Source of the DNA: Longimicrobiales bacterium
GTDB lineage: Bacteria; Gemmatimonadota; Gemmatimonadetes; Longimicrobiales; Gaopeijiaceae
DNA length: 64,000 nucleotides
Assembly (NCBI GenBank): GCA_958295645.1
Contig: OY282361.1
Location: 516,927-580,926, forward strand
Reading direction: 5' to 3'
Position 1 is the first letter of the stretch. Each line of letters begins with the position of its first letter. The notes below the pieces were generated by a model. It was given only the letters and a program-made list of their open reading frames with translations. It did not search any database and was not told the DNA's origin. The position numbers and the translations under genes were made by a program. Below are positions 1 through 7,308 of the stretch, in pieces.

Positions 1-322
1 CGCGCTCGAGGCGATTGCGGACGACCCGGAGGGCGCGACGGAGCCTCAGGCCGAGTTGGCCGAGTACGAGGGGCTGTACGAGTCCGACTGGGGCGAGACG
101 GCGATCCTCCGCTGGGACGGCGGCTTGGCCGCGCTGAGGCTGCCCGTGGACGACCCGCTCGACGCCTTGACCGAACTCAAGCGCGACGACGGCGCCGACG
201 ACGCTTTTCGCCGCCTCCGGGAGGACGGAGAGCCCGGCGAAGCGCACGTCTTCCACCGCGGTCCCGACGGTCGCGTCGAACGCATGAGCGTCCACGGCAA
301 CTTCTCGCGCAAGATTCGATGA
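1..322 (+). CDS. 3' end of a serine hydrolase (beta-lactamase/PBP family) gene; C-terminal DUF3471-like lipocalin domain. Partial: it begins upstream of the window.
   Basis: Frame 2 is open from the window edge to TGA at 320-322. The translation ...LAEYEGLYESDWGETAILRWDGGLAALRLP...FRRLREDGEPGEAHVFHRGPDGRVERMSVHGN fits the C-terminal domain pattern of class C beta-lactamase-family proteins. The stop overlaps the next start (ATGA). Confidence 0.4.
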   Translation, partial: ALEAIADDPEGATEPQAELAEYEGLYESDWGETAILRWDGGLAALRLPVDDPLDALTELKRDDGADDAFRRLREDGEPGEAHVFHRGPDGRVERMSVHGNFSRKIR

Positions 323-1521
323 TTCGGCAAAGGGAGGACGCCCGCCCCCAAATGAAGATCCCATCGGTCTACGAAGACGGCTATGCCGAGGCTAGGCGGC
401 TCGACCCGGGTCTCGCGGACGAGTACCTGCGCCACGTGTCCGTCGGCGACCCGGTTGCCGATGCGGCCGCCGACTCCCTGGCCGACTTCGAGACGTCCCA
501 CGGCCACCGCCTCATACGAGCCGGCATGGACGGAGACGCGAAGGCGTTCGCTTCGGCCCCGGCGGCTTTGCGCGAGCTGTTCGAGCGAGCCGAGGAGACC
601 CCCTCTTGGTGGGACGCCAGGGTCGCGCACGCCGGTTGCCGCGCCTTCCACGCCAACTCGGACTTGTTCGTTCCGGCCTTCTTCGTCGTCACGTTGCGCA
701 ATGCGAGCACGCTCATTAGTCGCGCCTTCTACGCCACGGGACGCGTCAGAACCGTGCACGGTCTAAGGCGGATTCGCCAGAACACCCGGCACTTCATAGA
801 GATCATGTTGCCCGGGGCGATGGATCGCGAAGGCGACGGTTGGAAGCTTTCCGTGCGCATCCGCCTCGTGCATGCGCAGGTTCGCCGCCTGCTTCGCGAC
901 CCCGGCGATTGGGACCCGGAGGACTTCGGCGCTCCGCTCAGTGCGGCCCACATGGGGCTCGCCTCCGCCAACTTCTCGGCCTCCCTGCTTCAGGAGGCAA
1001 GCCGTCTGGGCGCCGCCCTGGACGCGGAGTCCCGCACCTCCGTCATGCAGATCTGGCGCTACGCGTCGTGGTTGTTGGGCACGCCGGAAGCGCTCCTGTT
1101 CGAGGGCGACGAGTCCGCCACGCTCGCGTTTCGCGACATTGCGGTGGCGTGCGAGCCCTCTCCCGGCGAGGAGGCGTCCGTGATCGCTCAACGGCTGGTC
1201 ATGGCCCTGCCGCTGGTCGCCGGCTTGGACGAGCCTTCCAAGCAACGGGACTTCCAGGTCCACGCCTTTCGCGTATCCAGAGCCCTCTTGGGCGACGAAA
1301 CGGCGGATCAGCTGGGCTTCCCCAAGATGTCGACGGCCGGACTGTTGCGATGGATGCGCGTCAAGCGACGGATGCACGACACGCTCCACCGGGCCGCTCC
1401 CAAGTTGGCGACCAAGTGGTGGAGCGACCAGTTCATGTTCCTCATGGACGCCGCGATGATCGACGACCTCAGCTATCGGCTTCCCGACAAGCTGAAGGCG
1501 GAGGCCGCATCGCCCTGGTAG
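319..1521 (+). CDS. MpaB/DUF2236-family putative oxygenase
   Basis: 400-aa ORF with an ATGA overlap to the upstream gene. Overall resemblance to ER-bound oxygenase MpaB/rubber-oxygenase-like DUF2236 proteins, recalled from memory and not aligned. Confidence 0.4.
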   Translation: MIRQREDARPQMKIPSVYEDGYAEARRLDPGLADEYLRHVSVGDPVADAAADSLADFETSHGHRLIRAGMDGDAKAFASAPAALRELFERAEETPSWWDARVAHAGCRAFHANSDLFVPAFFVVTLRNASTLISRAFYATGRVRTVHGLRRIRQNTRHFIEIMLPGAMDREGDGWKLSVRIRLVHAQVRRLLRDPGDWDPEDFGAPLSAAHMGLASANFSASLLQEASRLGAALDAESRTSVMQIWRYASWLLGTPEALLFEGDESATLAFRDIAVACEPSPGEEASVIAQRLVMALPLVAGLDEPSKQRDFQVHAFRVSRALLGDETADQLGFPKMSTAGLLRWMRVKRRMHDTLHRAAPKLATKWWSDQFMFLMDAAMIDDLSYRLPDKLKAEAASPW

Positions 1522-1550
1522 CGCCGTCGGCCCGCCCCGCGTTTTCCCCG

Positions 1551-2570
1551 GTGCTCGTGCTCAGCACCGGGCGGTGCGGCTCCACGATGGTGTCGAACAT
1601 GCTCAACCTGCATCCCCGGGTCCTGAGCTTGTCCGAGTTCTTCAGCTTCGTGGGGACGGGCGCAATGCGCCGCCGCAGGACCACGGGCGAGCAGATGTGG
1701 GTTTGGTACGCCCGCCAGCGACGGCGCACGAAGCTGATGTTGCGAGAGGACTTCGAGGAACTCGCCTATCCCTTCGGCGGCCCCGGCGCCCGCTACGGCC
1801 TCGACGACGTGCCTCCGATCCTGTGCAGCGCTCTTCCTCATTTGACGCCCGCCCACGACGCGCTCTTCGACGAACTGGGTCCGGTAGTGCGCGCCCGTCC
1901 CCGCCAAGCGCCGGCCCTCCACTTTCGCGACTTGTTCGAGTGGCTCTGTCGGCGGATGGAGCGCGACGTGTGGGTCGAGCGCTCGGGAGCTTCGTTGCTC
2001 TTCGGCGCTCGCCTGCTTCGCGCGTTCCCCGACGCCCGAGTCGTGCACGTGTATCGGGACGGGCGGGAAACGGCCATCTCGATGAGCCGCCACTACCTTT
2101 TCCGCATGATCCTGGCCACCATGCACGCGCTTCGCTCGCGAGGAATCGACGCCATGTCGCAGATGTCTCAGGGCCGCTTCTGGGAGTGGATCGCTCTCTG
2201 GCTGGAACCCATGGCCACCCGGTGCCTGGATCCCGCCAAGTTGCCCTACGACAAATTGACGCTGGCGGACTTCGGCGTCTTCTGGAGCGGCATGATCGAG
2301 CGCGGCCACGAATTGCTGGCCGGCCTTCCGCCGGACCGGTTGCTGAACGTGGCCTTCGAGGATCTGCGAGCGACGCCGGAACCGCACCTGCGTCGGCTGA
2401 TCCGGTTCCTGTCGCCGGAACTCGAGGACGACGATTGGGTGCGCGAGGCCTCTAGGCTCCCGCGCCCGCCGCGTGCTCGGACCCACTTCGAGCGATTGGA
2501 CGCCGCCGACCGGAAAGCGCTGGCGCAAGCCTGCCTGCCAGGGCTGGAGCGGATGGGCTATTCCTTGTGA
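1551..2570 (+). CDS. Sulfotransferase family protein
   Basis: The PAPS-binding 5'-PSB-like motif VLVLSTGRCGST lies near the N-terminus. The listed long ORF 840..2570 is only meaningful after about 1520. The start was chosen at GTG 1551; CTG 1515 is an alternative. The TGA stop overlaps the GTG start of the methyltransferase. Confidence 0.55.
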   Translation: MLVLSTGRCGSTMVSNMLNLHPRVLSLSEFFSFVGTGAMRRRRTTGEQMWVWYARQRRRTKLMLREDFEELAYPFGGPGARYGLDDVPPILCSALPHLTPAHDALFDELGPVVRARPRQAPALHFRDLFEWLCRRMERDVWVERSGASLLFGARLLRAFPDARVVHVYRDGRETAISMSRHYLFRMILATMHALRSRGIDAMSQMSQGRFWEWIALWLEPMATRCLDPAKLPYDKLTLADFGVFWSGMIERGHELLAGLPPDRLLNVAFEDLRATPEPHLRRLIRFLSPELEDDDWVREASRLPRPPRARTHFERLDAADRKALAQACLPGLERMGYSL

Positions 2571-3592
2571 CGAGCGTAGCAACTCGGCGGAGAGGTCCGC
2601 CCCGCGTGATGCCGACCGTCTTTGAGGTATGCGCCGGCGCCGGCGGAATGGCCCTGGGTCTCGAGGACGCGGGTCTCAAGCCTGTCGGCCTTGCCGAGAA
2701 CGATCGTCACGCCTGCGACACGCTTCGCCTGAATCGCGCCGGGTGGCCGGTCATCGAAGCTGACGTGCGCGAGCTGGAGCCGGGCGGCGCTTCGGACGTG
2801 GACGTCTTCGCGGGCGGCGTGCCTTGTCCGCCCTTCTCCGTGGCCGGCAGGCAGTTGGGCGCCGCCGACGACCGCGACCTCTTTCCGACAGCGGTAAGCC
2901 TGATCAAGAGGATTCGGCCCAAGGCCGTCTTCTTGGAAAACGTGCCGGGCTTCGCGTCGCGGCGGTTCCAGCCCTACAGGCGGGGGCTCGCGGCGGACCT
3001 CGACTCGATGGGATACCGCGTCGACTGGCGGGTGTTGAACGCCTGCGACTTCGGCGTTCCGCAGTTGCGGCCCAGGTTCGTGCTTGTTGCTGTTCTCGAA
3101 CGGTATGCGCCTTACTTCGCTTGGCCGGCGCCCAACGGCCGAAGAACCACGGTGGGCGAGGCTTTGGAGGACTTGATGGCGGAAAACGGCTGGCCGGGTG
3201 CTCCCCAATGGGCGAAGCGGGCCAGCCACGTGGCGCCCACGCTGGTCGGCGGATCGAAGAGGCACGGTGGGGCCGACCTGGGGCCGACTCGCGCCCGGGC
3301 AGCGTGGAAGAAGCTAGGAGTCAATGGCCTGTCGCTGGCCGAAGAGGCACCGGCGCCCGACTTCCCCGAGGACTCGCTCCCGCGCCTCACCGTTCGCATG
3401 GCGGCCCGCATCCAGGGCTTTCCCGACTCGTGGCAGTTCTGCGGAAGCAAGACGGCGGCCTACCGCCAAGTCGGCAACGCGCTTCCTCCAGCGGTCGCAA
3501 CGGCAGTCGGCCAAGCCATCGCCGACGCGCTTCGGCAGAAGGAACCGGCGGCCGGAGCGGAGCAACTGGAATTCCGGTATGGCCGCCCATGA
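2567..3592 (+). CDS. DNA (cytosine-5)-methyltransferase, the modification subunit of a type II R-M system
   Basis: Motif I FEVCAGAGGMALG, motif IV GGVPCPPFSVAG (PC dipeptide), motif VI ENV, motif X QVGNALPP. GTG start at 2567 overlaps the upstream stop. An internal ATG at 2609 (MPTVFEV) is an alternative start. Confidence 0.9.
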   Translation: MTSVATRRRGPPRVMPTVFEVCAGAGGMALGLEDAGLKPVGLAENDRHACDTLRLNRAGWPVIEADVRELEPGGASDVDVFAGGVPCPPFSVAGRQLGAADDRDLFPTAVSLIKRIRPKAVFLENVPGFASRRFQPYRRGLAADLDSMGYRVDWRVLNACDFGVPQLRPRFVLVAVLERYAPYFAWPAPNGRRTTVGEALEDLMAENGWPGAPQWAKRASHVAPTLVGGSKRHGGADLGPTRARAAWKKLGVNGLSLAEEAPAPDFPEDSLPRLTVRMAARIQGFPDSWQFCGSKTAAYRQVGNALPPAVATAVGQAIADALRQKEPAAGAEQLEFRYGRP

Positions 3593-4431
3593 CGGACGGC
3601 CTCTTGGACTTTGCCCGGAGACGGTTTCATGAGAGCCTGCGGTCAAGGCTGTGGTCGGTCCGAGACGGCATTCCAAGCAACTCGGACAGAAGCAACCAAG
3701 CCAGCGTGCACATCGGCCGAGCCTTTGCGGGTGCCGTGGGCGCAACCGCAGACTTGCCGCGCCTAGGCGGGTCGGCTGCAGGTAGCGAATTCGAGCGGTG
3801 CGTAGCTGGCTTCCTTGGCGATGCCATGGCATCCCTCGCGCACCTCCACGCGGGAGGCTTGCGCATCTTGAAGGGCTCGGCCATTTCGAACTTCGAGCAG
3901 TATGCGCACTTGAGCGCTCTTGAAGAAGTGGCCGCGGCCAACCCCGAATTGGCAGCGGCTCTGGGCAGCGACTACACGATCAAACCCGACGTCGTCGTAG
4001 TCCGGTCGCCCGAAGCCGAGGAGCGAATCAACTTGGATGGCCGGGTCGTGAGCAACGAATCGGCGCGCCTGGCTCCGTTGCGGCGGGCCAACAACCCCGA
4101 TGATCTTCTGCACGCGAGCATCTCCTGCAAGTGGACGATACGGAGCGATCGCACCCAGAACTCCCGCGCCGAAGCGCTCAATCTTCTGCGAAACCGGAAG
4201 GGACGGGCTCCCCACGTGATCGTCGTCACTGCCGAGCCGCTGCCCAGCCGCCTTGCCTCCATCGCCATGGGCACCGGAGACATCGATTGCACCTACCATG
4301 TTGCGTTGCATGAACTCGAACATGCCGTCGCAGCGTCCCGGTGGGACGACGCCAGGGAGATGCTCGGCATCATGATCAAGGGGAAGAGGTTGCGCGACAT
4401 CTCCGACCTCCCTCTTGATCTCTGCATCTGA
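3589..4431 (+). CDS. Type II restriction endonuclease, NgoMIV/Cfr10I/Bse634I family (probable GCCGGC or RCCGGY specificity)
   Basis: ATG at 3589 overlaps the methyltransferase stop (ATGA). SISCKWTIRSDRTQNSRAE carries an S-x-K...E arrangement with a 14-residue K-to-E spacing, like the catalytic S185/K187/E201 of NgoMIV. An acidic residue (IKPDVVVV) lies about 45 aa upstream. Sandwiched between a C5-methyltransferase and vsr. Confidence 0.6.
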   Translation: MTDGLLDFARRRFHESLRSRLWSVRDGIPSNSDRSNQASVHIGRAFAGAVGATADLPRLGGSAAGSEFERCVAGFLGDAMASLAHLHAGGLRILKGSAISNFEQYAHLSALEEVAAANPELAAALGSDYTIKPDVVVVRSPEAEERINLDGRVVSNESARLAPLRRANNPDDLLHASISCKWTIRSDRTQNSRAEALNLLRNRKGRAPHVIVVTAEPLPSRLASIAMGTGDIDCTYHVALHELEHAVAASRWDDAREMLGIMIKGKRLRDISDLPLDLCI

Positions 4432-4440
4432 TCCTCTGCC

Positions 4441-4938
4441 GTGGCAGAGTACAAGCCGAAGTCCCGCGAAGAGATACGGCGGAACATGTCGGCGATCCGA
4501 AGCACCGGGGGCAAGGCGGAAGTAGCCCTTCGCTCGATTCTGCACCGGCGCGGGCTTCGCTTTCGCAAGAACGACAAGAGGCTCGTCGGCAAGCCCGACA
4601 TCGTCTTCGCGGGGGCTCGGGTGGCGGTGTTCGTCGACGGCGACTACTGGCACGCCCGGGTGCTTCGGGAGCGCGGACCGGCGGCCCTCGGGGAGCGGAT
4701 CAAGACCGCGAACCGGGCCTACTGGATCGACAAGTTCACCCGGCGGGTCGCGCGGGACGACGAAGTCGCGGCGCAGCTCGGGGCCCTCGGATGGACCGTC
4801 CTGCGTCTGTGGGAATCGGACGTGCGCGGGGATCCGGAGGCCGCGGCGGACCTCGTGGAAAGGGCTGTTTCGGGCGGAAGAAAACAGCCGGGGCAGACGG
4901 CGGGGGCTCCGAGCTCCAGCACGCCGGCCGAACTCTGA
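4441..4938 (+). CDS. vsr: Very-short-patch repair endonuclease (Vsr)
   Basis: GKPDIVFAGARVAVFVDGDYWH matches the Vsr catalytic core (the FVDGCFWH region). 165 aa, directly downstream of the R-M genes. Confidence 0.85.
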   Translation: MAEYKPKSREEIRRNMSAIRSTGGKAEVALRSILHRRGLRFRKNDKRLVGKPDIVFAGARVAVFVDGDYWHARVLRERGPAALGERIKTANRAYWIDKFTRRVARDDEVAAQLGALGWTVLRLWESDVRGDPEAAADLVERAVSGGRKQPGQTAGAPSSSTPAEL

Positions 4939-4940
4939 AT

Positions 4941-4965
4941 GCCCGCGGGACGCCAAGCCGCGGGC
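4941..4965. terminator. GC-rich hairpin between convergent genes (possible bidirectional terminator, no T-tract)
   Basis: GCCCGCGG-gacgccaag-CCGCGGGC: an 8-bp perfect stem with a 9-nt loop, lying between the vsr stop (4938) and the stop of the convergent ATPase gene (4971). Confidence 0.3.
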
Positions 4966-4970
4966 CGTCG

Positions 4971-6191
4971 CTACGACGACGCGACCTCCTCCGCCATTTC
5001 CCGGAGGCCCAACGCCTCCACGCCGCCTCCCTTGGGGTAGCGGTCGTCGCCGCCGTGGACCAGGAAGGCGCGGTCGGCGGGAACGTCTTCCAATGCCGTG
5101 CGGAGTCCTCGCGAAACGGCGGGCGCGCTGCTTCGCTTGATCTCCACGGCCCACAACCGGCCGCCGGGCATCTCCAGGAGGAGGTCGATCTCGGCCCCGG
5201 TGGCCGTTCGGTAGAAGCTGGCCTGGGCTTCTTCGGGCGCCGCGCGGATCAAGGTTTCCACGGCAAAGCCCTCCCAGCTCGGGCCCGCCACGGGGTGGCC
5301 CAGCGCCTCGTCGGCGGAGCCCAAGCGCAGCAAGGCATGAACAAGGCCGCTGTCGCGGATGTAGACCTTGGGCGACTTGACCAGCCGCTTGCGGACATTG
5401 GCGTGAAACGACGGCAGGCGCCGCACCAACAGGAGATCCGCCAAGAGGTCCAAGTAGCGGGCGACCGTCTTGCCGTCCACGGCCAAGCTGCGGGCCAGCT
5501 GCGCGCCGTTCCAGAGTCCACCTTGGGAGTGGGCCAGCATGGTCCAGAAGCGGCGCAGGGTGACGGCCGGAATGCGCGGCCCCAGTTCCGGGATGTCGCG
5601 CTCCAGGTAGGTGCGTACGAAGTTCTCTCGCCAAAGTGCGCCGGCTCGCTCGTTGGGCGCCAAGAACGAGCGGGGAAAGCCGCCCCTGGCCCAAAGGTCC
5701 ATGGCTTCGCCCCGGCGCACCTCCCGGACGTCGATGGGGGCCAACTCCAAGTAGCCGATCCGGCCCGCGAGGCTCTCGCTCGTTTGCCGCAACAGATCCA
5801 TCGACGCCGAACCCAGGAGCAGAAACTGACCCGACGGCTCGCCGCGGCGAATGCGCTCGTCGACGATTCCCCGCAACACGGGGAACAACTCGGGCGTCCG
5901 ATGAATCTCGTCGAGGATCACGAGTCGGTCCCGCACGGTTTCCAGGTACCCGGCCGCGTCGGACAGCCGGTCCAGATGGGCTGGGTTTTCCAAGTCGAGG
6001 TACAGTGCCTTGCCGGATCCGCCCGGCCCGCCGTGTCCGCCGCCGCCCGGTGCGCAAAGGGCGTCCGCGATGTTGCGAGCCAGCGTTGTCTTGCCGACTT
6101 GGCGCGGACCCAGCAACGCGACGGCCGGGAAGAGACGCAGGTACTCCACTAGTCGCGTGGCCAGCAAGCGGGGCACGAATCGGCTGTTCAT
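4971..6191 (-). CDS. AAA_14/DUF4143-family ATP-binding protein
   Basis: Walker A LLGPRQVGKTTL near the N-terminus. 406 aa, with the typical architecture of AAA_14 + DUF4143 proteins. Confidence 0.8.
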   Translation of the reverse strand: MNSRFVPRLLATRLVEYLRLFPAVALLGPRQVGKTTLARNIADALCAPGGGGHGGPGGSGKALYLDLENPAHLDRLSDAAGYLETVRDRLVILDEIHRTPELFPVLRGIVDERIRRGEPSGQFLLLGSASMDLLRQTSESLAGRIGYLELAPIDVREVRRGEAMDLWARGGFPRSFLAPNERAGALWRENFVRTYLERDIPELGPRIPAVTLRRFWTMLAHSQGGLWNGAQLARSLAVDGKTVARYLDLLADLLLVRRLPSFHANVRKRLVKSPKVYIRDSGLVHALLRLGSADEALGHPVAGPSWEGFAVETLIRAAPEEAQASFYRTATGAEIDLLLEMPGGRLWAVEIKRSSAPAVSRGLRTALEDVPADRAFLVHGGDDRYPKGGGVEALGLREMAEEVASS

Positions 6192-6237
6192 CCCTGCAAT
6201 TATGGCACGGCAGTCCAGAATTGCGAAATATCCAGCC

Positions 6238-7308
6238 CTACCGAAACGCCCTCTGAATCTCCTCCAGCGTCGTCGCCCCCGGGCACAACTCTTCGAACGA
6301 GCAATGCGCCAGCGGCGCGTCAGCGGTGCCGTGAATGCCGTGGAAGTCCGTCTCGGAGCCTGGGCGGCCCGGCGGTTCCAGGTGCAGGAGTCCAGTTGCG
6401 ACCTCGCCGGCCCGCTGGCGCTCCCGGACGTAGGCGTAGACCCGGTCGCGGTCCCGGGGGTCGTAGTCCGCAGGCACCTTGCGGAACTGGATGCGACTCC
6501 CGTCGTGCATGACGACGGTGCGGGCGTCCCCGGCTTCGTAGGTGGTCTCGATTTCTTCGGCCGGGGGCACGAAGTCGGCGTGCACTAGGGCGTTCACGTG
6601 GTCCCGCGTGTACTCGTAGCTCTTTGTGGAGCCGTGGTGGTCGTTGAAGGTGACGCAGGGCGAGATCACATCCACCAAGGCGAACCCGCGATGTCGCAGC
6701 CCGGCCTTGAGAATGGGGACGAGCTGCTCCTTGTCGCCCGAGAAGCTCCGCGCCACGAAGCCCGCCCCCAGGCTAAGCGCCAGCAGCACGGGATCGATGG
6801 GATGCTCGCGGCTGACCTGTCCGCGCTTGGCTTTCGAGCCCCGGTCGGCCGAGGCCGAGAACTGCCCTTTGGTCAGGCCGTAGACGCCGTTGTTCTCCAG
6901 GACGTACAGCATGTCCACGTTGCGGCGGACGACGTGAGCGAACTGGCCCATGCCGATGGACAGGCTGTCTCCGTCGCCCGAGACGCCGATGCAGACCAGT
7001 TCCCGGTTGGCCGCGTGCGCGCCGGTGGTGATGGAAGGCATCCGGCCGTGGACCGCGTTGAAGCCGTGGGCCTCCTTGAGGAAGTACGCCGGCGTCTTGC
7101 CGCTGCAGCCGATGCCCGACGTCTTGACGACCTTGTGCGGCTCGATGTCCATCTCCCAGAAGGCTTGCACGATCGCCGCCGTGATGGAGTCGTGCCCGCA
7201 CCCCGCGCACAGAGTGGACATGCCGCCTTCGTAGTCGCGGCGCGTGAGGCCCAGCCGGTTGGTGGCGAGTCCGGGATGCCGCACCCGGGGCTTGGCGATG
7301 TGGGTCAC
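6238..7308 (-). CDS. korB: 2-oxoacid:ferredoxin oxidoreductase beta subunit (TPP-binding)
   Basis: CAGCGHDSI and GDGD...SIG...NNGVYGLTKGQ thiamine-pyrophosphate motifs. GTG start at 7308 overlaps the korA stop. Confidence 0.9.
   Translation of the reverse strand: MTHIAKPRVRHPGLATNRLGLTRRDYEGGMSTLCAGCGHDSITAAIVQAFWEMDIEPHKVVKTSGIGCSGKTPAYFLKEAHGFNAVHGRMPSITTGAHAANRELVCIGVSGDGDSLSIGMGQFAHVVRRNVDMLYVLENNGVYGLTKGQFSASADRGSKAKRGQVSREHPIDPVLLALSLGAGFVARSFSGDKEQLVPILKAGLRHRGFALVDVISPCVTFNDHHGSTKSYEYTRDHVNALVHADFVPPAEEIETTYEAGDARTVVMHDGSRIQFRKVPADYDPRDRDRVYAYVRERQRAGEVATGLLHLEPPGRPGSETDFHGIHGTADAPLAHCSFEELCPGATTLEEIQRAFR

What the first reader, a model, noticed from the sequence alone, without database searches (positions are those of the whole stretch)
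2567..4938. Type II R-M operon (C5-methyltransferase, NgoMIV-family endonuclease, Vsr) translationally coupled into an upstream metabolic operon
The C5-methyltransferase, the endonuclease (S-x-K...E catalytic spacing as in NgoMIV/Cfr10I, so probably a GCCGGC-type site) and vsr form a compact unit. The first two are coupled by an ATGA overlap. Vsr would repair T:G mismatches arising from deamination of the 5mC this methyltransferase produces; the NaeI (GCCGGC) system is, as far as I recall, the other known example with a cognate Vsr gene. Unusually, the methyltransferase start overlaps (GTGA) the stop of a sulfotransferase. That gene in turn follows an MpaB-like oxygenase and a serine hydrolase, each with 4-bp overlaps (319-322). 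The R-M genes therefore appear to be transcribed as the tail of a five-gene operon rather than as an autonomous cassette with its own controller.
Basis: partly seen in the sequence, partly recalled or inferred. Interest (0 to 1): 0.5.

Follow-up and report, generated by a model that had tools for sequence, protein, structure and literature searches.

The report
Ordinary NgoMIV-type restriction system with Vsr
This is an intact but ordinary restriction-modification cassette of the NgoMIV (GCCGGC) type with a Vsr repair gene, and most of its supposed translational fusion to an upstream metabolic operon comes from picking the longest reading frames.

Summary
The three genes are real. There is a C5 methyltransferase (Pfam PF00145, 56% identical to M.NgoMIV), an endonuclease (PF09015, 49% identical to crystallised NgoMIV) and a Vsr nuclease (PF03852). 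The endonuclease keeps every catalytic and CCGG/outer-G:C contact residue except Q63, which is Ser. The M/R ATGA overlap (3589-3592) is real and recurs in relatives.

The claimed coupling to upstream genes is not supported. Homologues place the methyltransferase start at ATG 2609, 38 nt after the sulfotransferase stop and behind its own conserved Shine-Dalgarno. They place the MpaB start at ATG 352, not 319. MpaB and the sulfotransferase do not overlap here (TAG stop, no start codon).

The "five-gene operon" is a mosaic of three parts: a hydrolase 3' end, a two-gene MpaB-sulfotransferase unit (333-2577) and the M-R-Vsr cassette (2602-4850). The two-gene unit recurs at 83-88% nucleotide identity in unrelated contexts, once between nuoA and nuoB. 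One relative has the hydrolase followed after 16 nt by M-R-Vsr; two others have the cassette beside the same oxidoreductase operon. So the metabolic pair probably inserted upstream of a resident cassette.

Co-transcription remains plausible but untested. M-R-Vsr is common: 28 of 51 assessable metagenomic NgoMIV loci.

The parts
2..322 (+). 3' end of a beta-lactamase-family serine hydrolase gene (DUF3471 C-terminal domain). Context only; stop codon TGA at 320-322.
   Evidence: Weak PF11954 match, E=4.4e-5. 67% aa / 78% nt identity to the 3' end of the PF00144 gene that directly precedes M-R-Vsr in L085.
333..2577 (+). Two-gene MpaB-like oxygenase and sulfotransferase unit. MpaB is 352-1521. The sulfotransferase probably runs 1551-2570.
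   Evidence: PF09995 at 2.7e-16 and PF13469 at 4e-21. 83-88% nt identity across exactly this span to L094, L095 and L096, which sit in unrelated contexts. The start at ATG 352 comes from homologues. The MpaB/sulfotransferase junction is TAG here but GTGA in relatives.
2588..2594 (+). Shine-Dalgarno-like GGAGAGG that serves the methyltransferase gene.
   Evidence: Read directly from the sequence. A purine-rich block lies at the same place upstream of the M start in L085, L087 and L092.
2609..3592 (+). C5 cytosine DNA methyltransferase, orthologue of M.NgoMIV. Alternative starts are GTG 2606 (as in the database copy) and GTG 2567 (longest ORF, unsupported).
   Evidence: PF00145, E=6.7e-65. 56% identity to the gene directly upstream of NgoMIV in N. 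gonorrhoeae, over residues 17-325. N-termini of 17 homologues. Motifs FxGxG, PCPPFS, ENV, QLRPR and GNALPP read from the translation.
3589..4431 (+). NgoMIV-family Type II restriction endonuclease, 280 aa. Its ATG overlaps the M stop codon (ATGA).
   Evidence: PF09015, E=3.5e-94. PDB 1FIU/4ABT, E=3.8e-78. 49% identity to NgoMIV. E70, D140, K187, E201, R191-S-D-R194, D34 and R227 are all conserved; Q63 is Ser.
4441..4938 (+). Vsr (very-short-patch repair) T:G mismatch endonuclease, 165 aa. GTG start lies 9 nt after the R stop. The C-terminal ~30 aa are not conserved.
   Evidence: PF03852, E=3.1e-22. PDB 1CW0, E=3.6e-14. 73-76% identity to the Vsr genes of L085 and L086. The start aligns with the ATG of L085.
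4941..4965 (.). GC-rich 8-bp hairpin between the convergent vsr and DUF4143 ATPase genes. Likely transcript end.
   Evidence: Fold dG -23.6 kcal/mol, z=-2.9 against shuffles. The four upstream junctions show nothing comparable.
4971..6191 (-). AAA_14/DUF4143 ATPase, a PADLOC candidate defence family (PDC-S01). Convergent neighbour; context only.
   Evidence: PF13635 at 3.6e-46 and PF13173 at 1.2e-24. PDLC04790, E=5.3e-86.

Best explanation
Window 2602-4965 holds an intact three-gene Type II restriction-modification cassette of the NgoMIV kind.

Inferred mechanism, by orthology with NgoMIV:
- The methyltransferase puts 5-methylcytosine on GCCGGC.
- The endonuclease cleaves unmethylated G|CCGGC, working as a two-site (Type IIF) tetramer.
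- Vsr nicks the T:G mismatches left when the methylated cytosines deaminate, and so starts very-short-patch repair.

Expression:
- M is translated from its own Shine-Dalgarno and ATG 2609.
- R is coupled to M by the ATGA overlap.
- Vsr starts 9 nt after the R stop with no visible ribosome-binding site, so it probably depends on ribosomes terminating at R (inferred).

History:
- The cassette is a long-term resident of this chromosomal spot in related Gemmatimonadota-like genomes, downstream of a serine-hydrolase gene and next to a 2-oxoacid:ferredoxin oxidoreductase operon.
- In this lineage a two-gene MpaB-sulfotransferase unit was probably inserted into the short spacer between the hydrolase and M.
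- The result is a co-directional five-gene array with 29-38 nt spacers.

The cassette here and in L085 lacks the conserved upstream block found in three relatives. Its transcription may therefore come from upstream read-through, or from a promoter inside the preceding coding sequence. That step is inferred, not shown.
For: Gene identities.

Specificity:
- All NgoMIV catalytic residues are conserved (E70, D140, K187, E201; named in PMC2532715, PMC5389614, PMC4652773).
- The RSDR stretch that reads CCGG is conserved (PMC3413111).
- The outer-G:C contacts D34 and R227 are conserved (PMC5389614). All of these hold in 85 of 85 homologues, including this one.
- M is 56% identical to M.NgoMIV, and the alignment runs through the target-recognition region.

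Start codons.

Cassette generality:
- M lies upstream in 51 of 56 assessable loci, Vsr downstream in 37 of 67, and M-R-Vsr in 28 of 51.
- An annotated trio sits on a Mycobacterium plasmid.

Mosaic structure and residency:
- L085 has the hydrolase, then 16 nt, then M-R-Vsr. Homology to the window is 57-318 and 2602-4836.
- L087 and L089 share the cassette and the downstream oxidoreductase operon in the same orientation.
- The MpaB-sulfotransferase unit occurs in five other contexts, including between nuoA and nuoB.

Transcript end: hairpin after vsr only.

Missing 5' block.
Against: - No expression, methylation or cleavage data exist for this organism.
- Q63, the minor-groove contact to the outer C in NgoMIV (PMC3413111, PMC4652773), is Ser here and in 3 of the 84 other homologues aligned, so outer-base discrimination could differ slightly.
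- GCCGGC is not noticeably avoided in the window: 109 sites, O/E 0.87, unremarkable among palindromes. This neither supports nor contradicts activity.
- The direction of the indel (insertion here versus loss in L085) is inferred from parsimony over few genomes.
- GTG 2567 and ATG 319 cannot be excluded as minor alternative starts. Two in-frame, stop-free overlap starts in one array is a mild coincidence.
- The sigma-70 consensus scan is uninformative in these genomes, so an internal promoter in the 3' end of the sulfotransferase gene cannot be ruled out.
Confidence: 0.8

Rival explanations
1. The R-M genes are the translationally coupled tail of a genuine five-gene operon, with 4-bp overlaps linking hydrolase to MpaB, MpaB to sulfotransferase, and sulfotransferase to M. 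R-M expression would then be mechanistically tied to the metabolic genes.
For: - ATGA at 319-322 and GTGA at 2567-2570 exist and are in frame with the downstream genes, with no stop codon between.
- The source genome's own annotation uses ATG 319 for MpaB (P0121, 400 aa).
- All genes are co-directional, with no hairpin between them.
Against: - M homologues start at the codon equivalent to 2609, each behind its own purine-rich Shine-Dalgarno. Homology to related cassettes begins only at about 2586-2602.
- Most listed MpaB homologues are 389 aa, which matches ATG 352, and homology of the unit begins at 333.
- MpaB ends in TAG with GTA, not GTG, at the overlap position.
- The array is a mosaic of three independently distributed modules.
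Confidence: 0.1
2. The cassette is transcriptionally autonomous. A promoter embedded in the last ~200 nt of the sulfotransferase gene (and in the hydrolase 3' end in L085) drives M-R-Vsr independently of upstream genes.
For: - In L091 the gene upstream of M is divergent (253-nt gap), so the cassette family can carry its own promoter.
- L087, L089 and L092 have 140-210 nt upstream regions with a shared conserved block.
- Promoters inside upstream coding sequence are common for R-M genes (general knowledge).
Against: - The conserved upstream block of the relatives is absent from window 1-6400.
- The window and L085 share no sequence upstream of the Shine-Dalgarno.
- No sigma-70-like site was found on the + strand. 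However, the scan also finds none where a promoter must exist, so this is weak evidence.
Confidence: 0.3
3. The system recognises a relaxed or different CCGG-core site (for example RCCGGY) rather than strict GCCGGC, because the minor-groove contact Q63 is replaced by Ser.
For: - Q63 is Ser in this protein and in 3 of the 84 other homologues aligned, whereas 79 have Gln.
- Q63 hydrogen-bonds O2 of the outer cytosine in NgoMIV (PMC3413111, PMC4652773).
Against: - The major-groove contacts that specify the outer G:C pair (D34, R227) and S192 inside the RSDR stretch are conserved (PMC5389614, PMC4652773).
- The partner methyltransferase is 56% identical to M.NgoMIV over its whole length.
Confidence: 0.1

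Closest known systems
NgoMIV (NgoMI) restriction-modification system of Neisseria gonorrhoeae (PDB 1FIU, 4ABT)
   Same: - Same M-then-R gene order with directly abutting genes.
- R is 49% identical and M 56% identical.
- Identical PD-X46-K-X13-E active site plus E70, RSDR CCGG reader, and D34/R227 outer-pair contacts.
   Different: - No vsr within 3 kb of the Neisseria locus, whereas here vsr follows R after 9 nt.
- Q63 is Ser here.
- M and R overlap by 4 bp here but are merely contiguous in Neisseria.
M-R-Vsr and Vsr/M/R NgoMIV-family cassettes in public sequence data (for example Mycobacterium sp. plasmid p20KCMC460_04, and 28 metagenomic loci)
   Same: The same three protein families in one compact unit. 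In the metagenomic loci the order M, R, Vsr is the same.
   Different: - In the Mycobacterium plasmid vsr is divergent and upstream.
- Vsr identity to the metagenomic copies is only 33-46%.
Escherichia coli dcm-vsr
   Same: vsr lies immediately downstream of, and is co-expressed with, the gene before it. It repairs deamination damage at the sites its partner methylates (PMC12907096, introduction).
   Different: - E. coli has no restriction gene and targets CCWGG.
- The R-less relatives L086 and L091 (M followed by Vsr; L091 keeps the last codons of R) resemble dcm-vsr more closely than this window does.
   Same: Same recognition sequence.
   Different: R.NaeI belongs to the other (beta) structural branch of PD-(D/E)XK enzymes, whereas NgoMIV is in the alpha branch (PMC4081073). 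It is an isoschizomer, not a homologue.

Membership tests
NgoMIV family / CCGG-family Type IIF endonucleases (PF09015) | Full-length sequence homology to NgoMIV | tested here: met
   PF09015, E=3.5e-94, residues 25-280. PDB 1FIU, E=3.8e-78, residues 9-280 against 8-286. 49% identity.
NgoMIV family / CCGG-family Type IIF endonucleases (PF09015) | Permuted active site PD-X46-53-K-X13-E plus an upstream Glu (NgoMIV E70, D140, K187, E201) | tested here: met
   E69, P133-D134, K181 and E195 in this protein, with spacings X46 and X13. Motif as given in PMC3413111, PMC4652773 and PMC2532715.
NgoMIV family / CCGG-family Type IIF endonucleases (PF09015) | R-x-D-R stretch that reads the CCGG core | tested here: met
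   R185-S-D-R188 is identical to NgoMIV R191-S-D-R194 and is invariant in 85 of 85 homologues (PMC3413111).
NgoMIV family / CCGG-family Type IIF endonucleases (PF09015) | Contacts to the outer G:C pair (D34 and R227 in the major groove; Q63 in the minor groove) | tested here: inconclusive
   D34 and R227 are conserved. Q63 is replaced by Ser (PMC5389614, PMC3413111).
NgoMIV family / CCGG-family Type IIF endonucleases (PF09015) | Tetramer that cleaves G|CCGGC at two sites concertedly | not testable with these tools
   Needs biochemistry. Inferred by orthology only (PMC4081073).
C5 cytosine DNA methyltransferase (PF00145), M.NgoMIV orthologue | Pfam match and the conserved motifs I (FxGxG), IV (PC), VI (ENV), VIII (QxRxR) and X (GN) | tested here: met
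   PF00145, E=6.7e-65. FEVCAGAGG, GGVPCPPFS, ENV, QLRPR and GNALPP read from the translation.
C5 cytosine DNA methyltransferase (PF00145), M.NgoMIV orthologue | Similarity to M.NgoMIV through the target-recognition region, and pairing with an NgoMIV-type R | tested here: met
   56% identity over residues 17-325 to the ORF directly upstream of NgoMIV in N. gonorrhoeae. M homologues sit upstream of R in 51 of 56 loci.
C5 cytosine DNA methyltransferase (PF00145), M.NgoMIV orthologue | Methylation of GCCGGC | not testable with these tools
   Needs a methylome or a protection assay.
Vsr very-short-patch repair endonuclease (PF03852) | Pfam match and homology to E. coli Vsr, including the catalytic Asp (D51) and the F/W-H segment (W68, H69) | tested here: met
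   PF03852, E=3.1e-22. In the 1CW0 alignment GKPD matches GRPD and YWH matches FWH.
Vsr very-short-patch repair endonuclease (PF03852) | Structural zinc site of E. coli Vsr (C66, H71, C73, C117; ligand identities from my own knowledge) | tested here: not met
   The aligned residues are D, R, L and S. This is a zinc-less Vsr variant, and family membership by sequence is unaffected.
Vsr very-short-patch repair endonuclease (PF03852) | Nicking 5' of the T in T:G mismatches within the methylated site | not testable with these tools
   Needs biochemistry.
   Only the M/R overlap (3589-3592) is supported and recurs in relatives. The supported starts at the other junctions are 352, 1551 and 2609, giving spacers of 29, 29 and 38 nt.
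   Consistent with the short spacers and with a hairpin only after vsr. Needs RNA data.
C-protein-controlled R-M system | Small helix-turn-helix controller gene in or beside the cassette | tested here: not met
   The ORFs of 60 aa or more listed between 2570 and 4971 lie inside the M, R and Vsr coding regions, in other frames or on the opposite strand, and the spacers between the genes leave no room for an extra gene. None of the seven proteins scanned matched a helix-turn-helix family.

The most novel reading that the evidence does not exclude
The MpaB-like oxygenase and sulfotransferase pair may be a promoter-less, mobile two-gene unit that lands co-directionally in the short spacers of existing operons. 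No recombinase, terminal repeat or att-like site accompanies the unit, so the way it moves would be new.
Probability: 0.25. Interest if true: 0.5.

Novelty: new member of a known kind. Interest (0 to 1): 0.18.

Why it matters
For the R-M system itself, very little. It adds a Gemmatimonadota-like member to a well-characterised enzyme family, and the M-R-Vsr layout turns out to be widespread.

The practical lesson is methodological. In a genome of about 67% G+C, longest-ORF start calls manufacture 4-bp "translational coupling" overlaps, and homologue-anchored starts remove two of the three cited.

Two by-products may be worth a separate look. One is the recurrent, context-hopping MpaB-sulfotransferase pair. 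The other is the repeated decay of M-R-Vsr into R-less M-Vsr pairs, a natural series illustrating how dcm-vsr-like orphan modules could arise.

Tried and rejected
- **Exact-sequence look-ups.** Look-ups of R and of the annotated M (P0001) found no contig on record, so the source genome's own annotation could not be read.
- **Rfam.** A scan of the whole window found nothing.
- **Promoter scans.** The sigma-70 scan found no + strand site in 1-6400. It also found none upstream of M in four relatives, including L091 where the upstream gene is divergent and a promoter must exist. I therefore rejected the scan as uninformative rather than counting it as evidence for read-through.
- **Flanking repeats.** Direct and inverted repeat searches around both modules gave only short, chance-level matches, so there are no target-site duplications or terminal repeats.
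- **GCCGGC avoidance.** O/E is 0.87, unremarkable among hexamer palindromes, so this is not usable as evidence of specificity.
- **PADLOC.** No hit for MpaB or the sulfotransferase, which gives no support for calling that pair a known defence system.
- **Genome-collection scan with the sulfotransferase.** It gave only four loci. The one close relative (L004, Longimicrobiales) has a degraded copy and no R-M cassette, so it is not a clean empty site.
- **Structure prediction of R.** Considered and judged unnecessary given 49% identity to a crystal structure.
- **Small hairpins.** Hairpins around the M Shine-Dalgarno and the vsr start codon were not pursued. They are not significant against shuffles, or not evidently conserved in L085.

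Full report
**What is in the sequence.** The first 6.4 kb of the window (about 67% G+C) carries six co-directional reading frames on the + strand and a convergent gene.
- Pfam assigns them as follows:
  - residues encoded by 2-322: the DUF3471 tail of a serine hydrolase;
  - 319/352-1521: an MpaB/Lcp-type oxygenase domain (PF09995, 2.7e-16);
  - about 1551-2570: a sulfotransferase (PF13469, 4e-21);
  - 2567/2609-3592: a C5 DNA methyltransferase (PF00145, 6.7e-65);
  - 3589-4431: an NgoMIV restriction enzyme (PF09015, 3.5e-94);
  - 4441-4938: Vsr (PF03852, 3.1e-22);
  - 4971-6191 on the minus strand: an AAA_14/DUF4143 ATPase.
- PADLOC agrees: MTase_II, REase_II and Vsr for the three R-M genes, and the candidate family PDC-S01 for the ATPase.
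- The strings ATGA (319-322), GTGA (2567-2570) and ATGA (3589-3592) are all present.

**The endonuclease.**
- It aligns over its full length with crystallised NgoMIV (1FIU/4ABT, E=3.8e-78) at 49% identity.
- I aligned it with NgoMIV and 84 homologues from metagenomes and related genomes.
- Every residue the literature names is conserved in all 85 sequences:
  - active site E70, D140, K187, E201 (PMC2532715, PMC5389614, PMC4652773);
  - the R191-S-D-R194 stretch that reads CCGG (PMC3413111);
  - D34 and R227, which read the outer G:C pair (PMC5389614).
- The family motif PD-X46-53-K-X13-E (PMC3413111) appears here as P133-D134, X46, K181, X13, E195.
- The one departure is Q63, the minor-groove contact to the outer cytosine (PMC3413111, PMC4652773). 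It is Ser here and in three other homologues.

**The methyltransferase.**
- Two mislabelled 2.17-Mb Neisseria gonorrhoeae records in the plasmid collection gave access to the type locus.
- There a 312-aa ORF directly abuts the 286-aa NgoMIV gene.
- The window's methyltransferase is 56% identical to that ORF over residues 17-325, right through the variable target-recognition region.
- With the conserved endonuclease contacts, this makes GCCGGC the expected site.
- A paper on gonococcal Vsr enzymes uses GTCGGC/GCCGGC as the mismatch substrate for the GCCGGC methyltransferase (PMC6116569). This implies methylation of the first cytosine. I carry that over only as an inference.

**Vsr.**
- It aligns with E. 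coli Vsr (1CW0, 3.6e-14).
- The catalytic Asp (GKPD against GRPD) and the aromatic-His segment (YWH against FWH) are conserved.
- The four zinc ligands I recall for E. coli Vsr (C66, H71, C73, C117) align with D, R, L and S. This is a zinc-less variant.
- Its GTG start lies 9 nt after the endonuclease stop. It aligns with the ATG of the L085 orthologue.
- No purine-rich ribosome-binding site precedes it. I therefore infer dependence on ribosomes terminating at R, as is known for vsr after dcm in E. coli (co-transcription cited in PMC12907096).

**How common the layout is.** A metagenome scan with the endonuclease returned 80 loci at 48-55% identity.
- M lies directly upstream in 51 of 56 loci where enough flanking DNA exists to judge.
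- Vsr lies directly downstream in 37 of 67.
- The full M-R-Vsr order is present in 28 of 51.
- A RefSeq Mycobacterium plasmid already carries an annotated Vsr, C5 methyltransferase and "NgoMIV family type II restriction endonuclease" trio.
- The Neisseria type locus has no vsr within 3 kb.
NaeI is in any case an isoschizomer from the other structural branch (PMC4081073).

**The start codons, which decide the "unusual" claim.**
- *Methyltransferase.*
  - The database copy of this exact protein is 328 aa, starting at GTG 2606 (P0001).
  - Of the 17 homologues fetched, the full-length calls begin M-x-x-V-F-E- or within a few residues of it. The closest begins MPTVFEVCAGAGG, identical to the window from ATG 2609. 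The shorter 312-315-aa calls start inside motif I.
  - DNA alignments place the GTG or TTG starts of L085, L087 and L092 on the same codon as ATG 2609. Each follows a purine-rich Shine-Dalgarno, GGAGAGG at 2588-2594 here.
  - Homology to related cassettes begins only at about 2586-2602.
  - The 14 codons from GTG 2567 (MTSVATRRRGPPRV) have no counterpart anywhere.
- *MpaB.*
  - Most of the listed homologues are 389 aa, which corresponds to ATG 352.
  - The SAR202 homologues start at the aligned position, two of them with an upstream stop codon.
  - In the three closest loci the aligned ATG and the preceding GGAGG are invariant, while sequence upstream of 333 is unrelated.
- *MpaB to sulfotransferase.*
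  - Three of the four relatives aligned do have a true GTGA overlap.
  - The window and L096 read GTAG. This keeps a stop codon but destroys the overlapping start.
  - The next in-frame start is GTG 1551.
- *Summary.* The supported spacers are 29, 29 and 38 nt. Only the M/R overlap is real, and it recurs in L085, L087/L088 and L092.
- *Chance.* In DNA this G+C-rich, stop-free upstream extensions are expected. I estimate roughly a one-in-six chance per TGA junction. This is my own estimate, not a computed result.

**The array is a mosaic.** Context look-ups for close homologues gave the following.
- L085 (M 76% identical) has a beta-lactamase-family hydrolase, then 16 nt, then M-R-Vsr. Its DNA matches window 57-318 and 2602-4836 and nothing between.
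- L087/L088 and L089/L090 carry M-R-Vsr followed by the same 2-oxoacid:ferredoxin oxidoreductase genes, in the same orientation as window 6232 onward.
- L086 and L091 have M followed directly by Vsr, with the hydrolase gene nearby. L091 still carries the last codons of R (…LPLDLVV*) in front of vsr, so R was lost there.
- Window 333-2577, exactly MpaB plus the sulfotransferase, matches L094, L095 and L096 at 83-88% nucleotide identity. Their surroundings are unrelated:
  - L094: an AAA/nSTAND3 gene and cytochromes;
  - L095: an AbiJ/DUF1156/DUF499 defence cluster;
  - L096: RNase HII and a Type I HsdR.
- In L101/L102 a 70%-identical copy of the pair sits between nuoA and nuoB of the Complex I operon. 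Two independent assemblies show this.
- In L004 the pair is degraded.
- The most economical reading is that the R-M cassette is a long-term resident between the hydrolase and the oxidoreductase operon, and that the MpaB-sulfotransferase pair was inserted upstream of it.
- No repeats mark either module's ends.

**Is the cassette transcribed from upstream?** This cannot be decided here.
- In favour:
  - all five genes are co-directional with short spacers;
  - the only significant hairpin is the 8-bp GC stem right after vsr (4941-4965, dG -23.6 kcal/mol, z=-2.9), and the other junctions score near zero;
  - three relatives with 140-210 nt upstream of M share a conserved block, CATGGCGCnGTCCCG…GCCA…TA..GT;
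  - the window lacks that block, and the window and L085 share nothing upstream of the Shine-Dalgarno.
- Against over-reading: the sigma-70 scan finds nothing even where a promoter must exist. A promoter inside the 3' end of the sulfotransferase gene therefore remains possible.

**Verdict.** The gene identifications and the GCCGGC prediction hold. The "translationally coupled into a metabolic operon" claim does not. The system is a new member of a well-known kind. GCCGGC occurs 109 times in the window without marked avoidance (O/E 0.87), so an active methyltransferase is needed if the endonuclease is active. That is expected from the intact motifs but has not been shown.

Noticed in passing
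window 333-2577; L094 8996-11355; L095 8996-11239; L096 2125-4348; L101 572-2799: The MpaB-like oxygenase and sulfotransferase pair recurs as the same tight two-gene unit (83-88% nt identity in three contigs) in unrelated neighbourhoods. In L101/L102 it sits between nuoA and nuoB of the Complex I operon. In four of five contexts it is co-directional with, and within 91 nt of, the upstream gene. Three contexts abut defence genes. It has no recombinase, no terminal repeats and no PADLOC hit.
   Followed up: partly
window 1515-1560, compared with L095, L101, L094 and L096 (alignment A5): Three of the four relatives aligned couple MpaB and the sulfotransferase through a GTGA overlap. The window and L096 read GTAG, which removes the overlapping GTG start. 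The sulfotransferase must then begin at GTG 1551, only four residues before its STGRCGST PAPS-binding loop, or it is poorly translated.
   Followed up: partly
L086 8001-9526; L091 7001-8550: Two related genomes carry M followed directly by Vsr, with no endonuclease. L091 retains the last ~8 codons of R in front of vsr. This is a natural example of an R-M system decaying into a dcm-vsr-like orphan pair.
   Followed up: partly
L087 6890-6945; L089 6890-6945; L092 6930-6985: A conserved ~50-nt block (CATGGCGCnGTCCCG…GCCA…TA..GT) lies about 45-95 nt upstream of the M start in three cassettes. It is absent from the window and from L085. It may be the cassette's native promoter or operator.
   Followed up: partly
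window 4971-6191 (- strand); promoter-like site 6227-6199: The convergent neighbour is an AAA_14/DUF4143 ATPase that matches the PADLOC candidate defence family PDC-S01 (5.3e-86). DUF4143 or AAA_14 genes or fragments also flank the cassette in L087, L089 and L091. The only sigma-70-like site in 1-6400 sits just upstream of this gene.
   Followed up: no
window 3772-3774 (residue 62 of R): The NgoMIV minor-groove contact Q63 is Ser in this enzyme and in 3 of the 84 other homologues aligned. All other named contacts are invariant.
   Followed up: partly
window 4441-4938: This Vsr lacks all four residues that align with the E. coli Vsr zinc ligands (D, R, L and S in their place). It also has a non-conserved Ala/Gly/Pro-rich C-terminal tail of ~30 aa.
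   Followed up: no
L004 9081-10597: In a Longimicrobiales genome the MpaB-sulfotransferase pair is broken by frameshifts and by a ~360-nt deletion across the gene junction. This could be a pseudogene pair or long-read assembly errors.
   Followed up: no
L098 (NZ_CP119142.1) and NZ_CP119140.1: Two 2.17-Mb Neisseria gonorrhoeae records are filed in the plasmid collection as plasmids. They look like chromosomes and are almost unannotated there.
   Followed up: no
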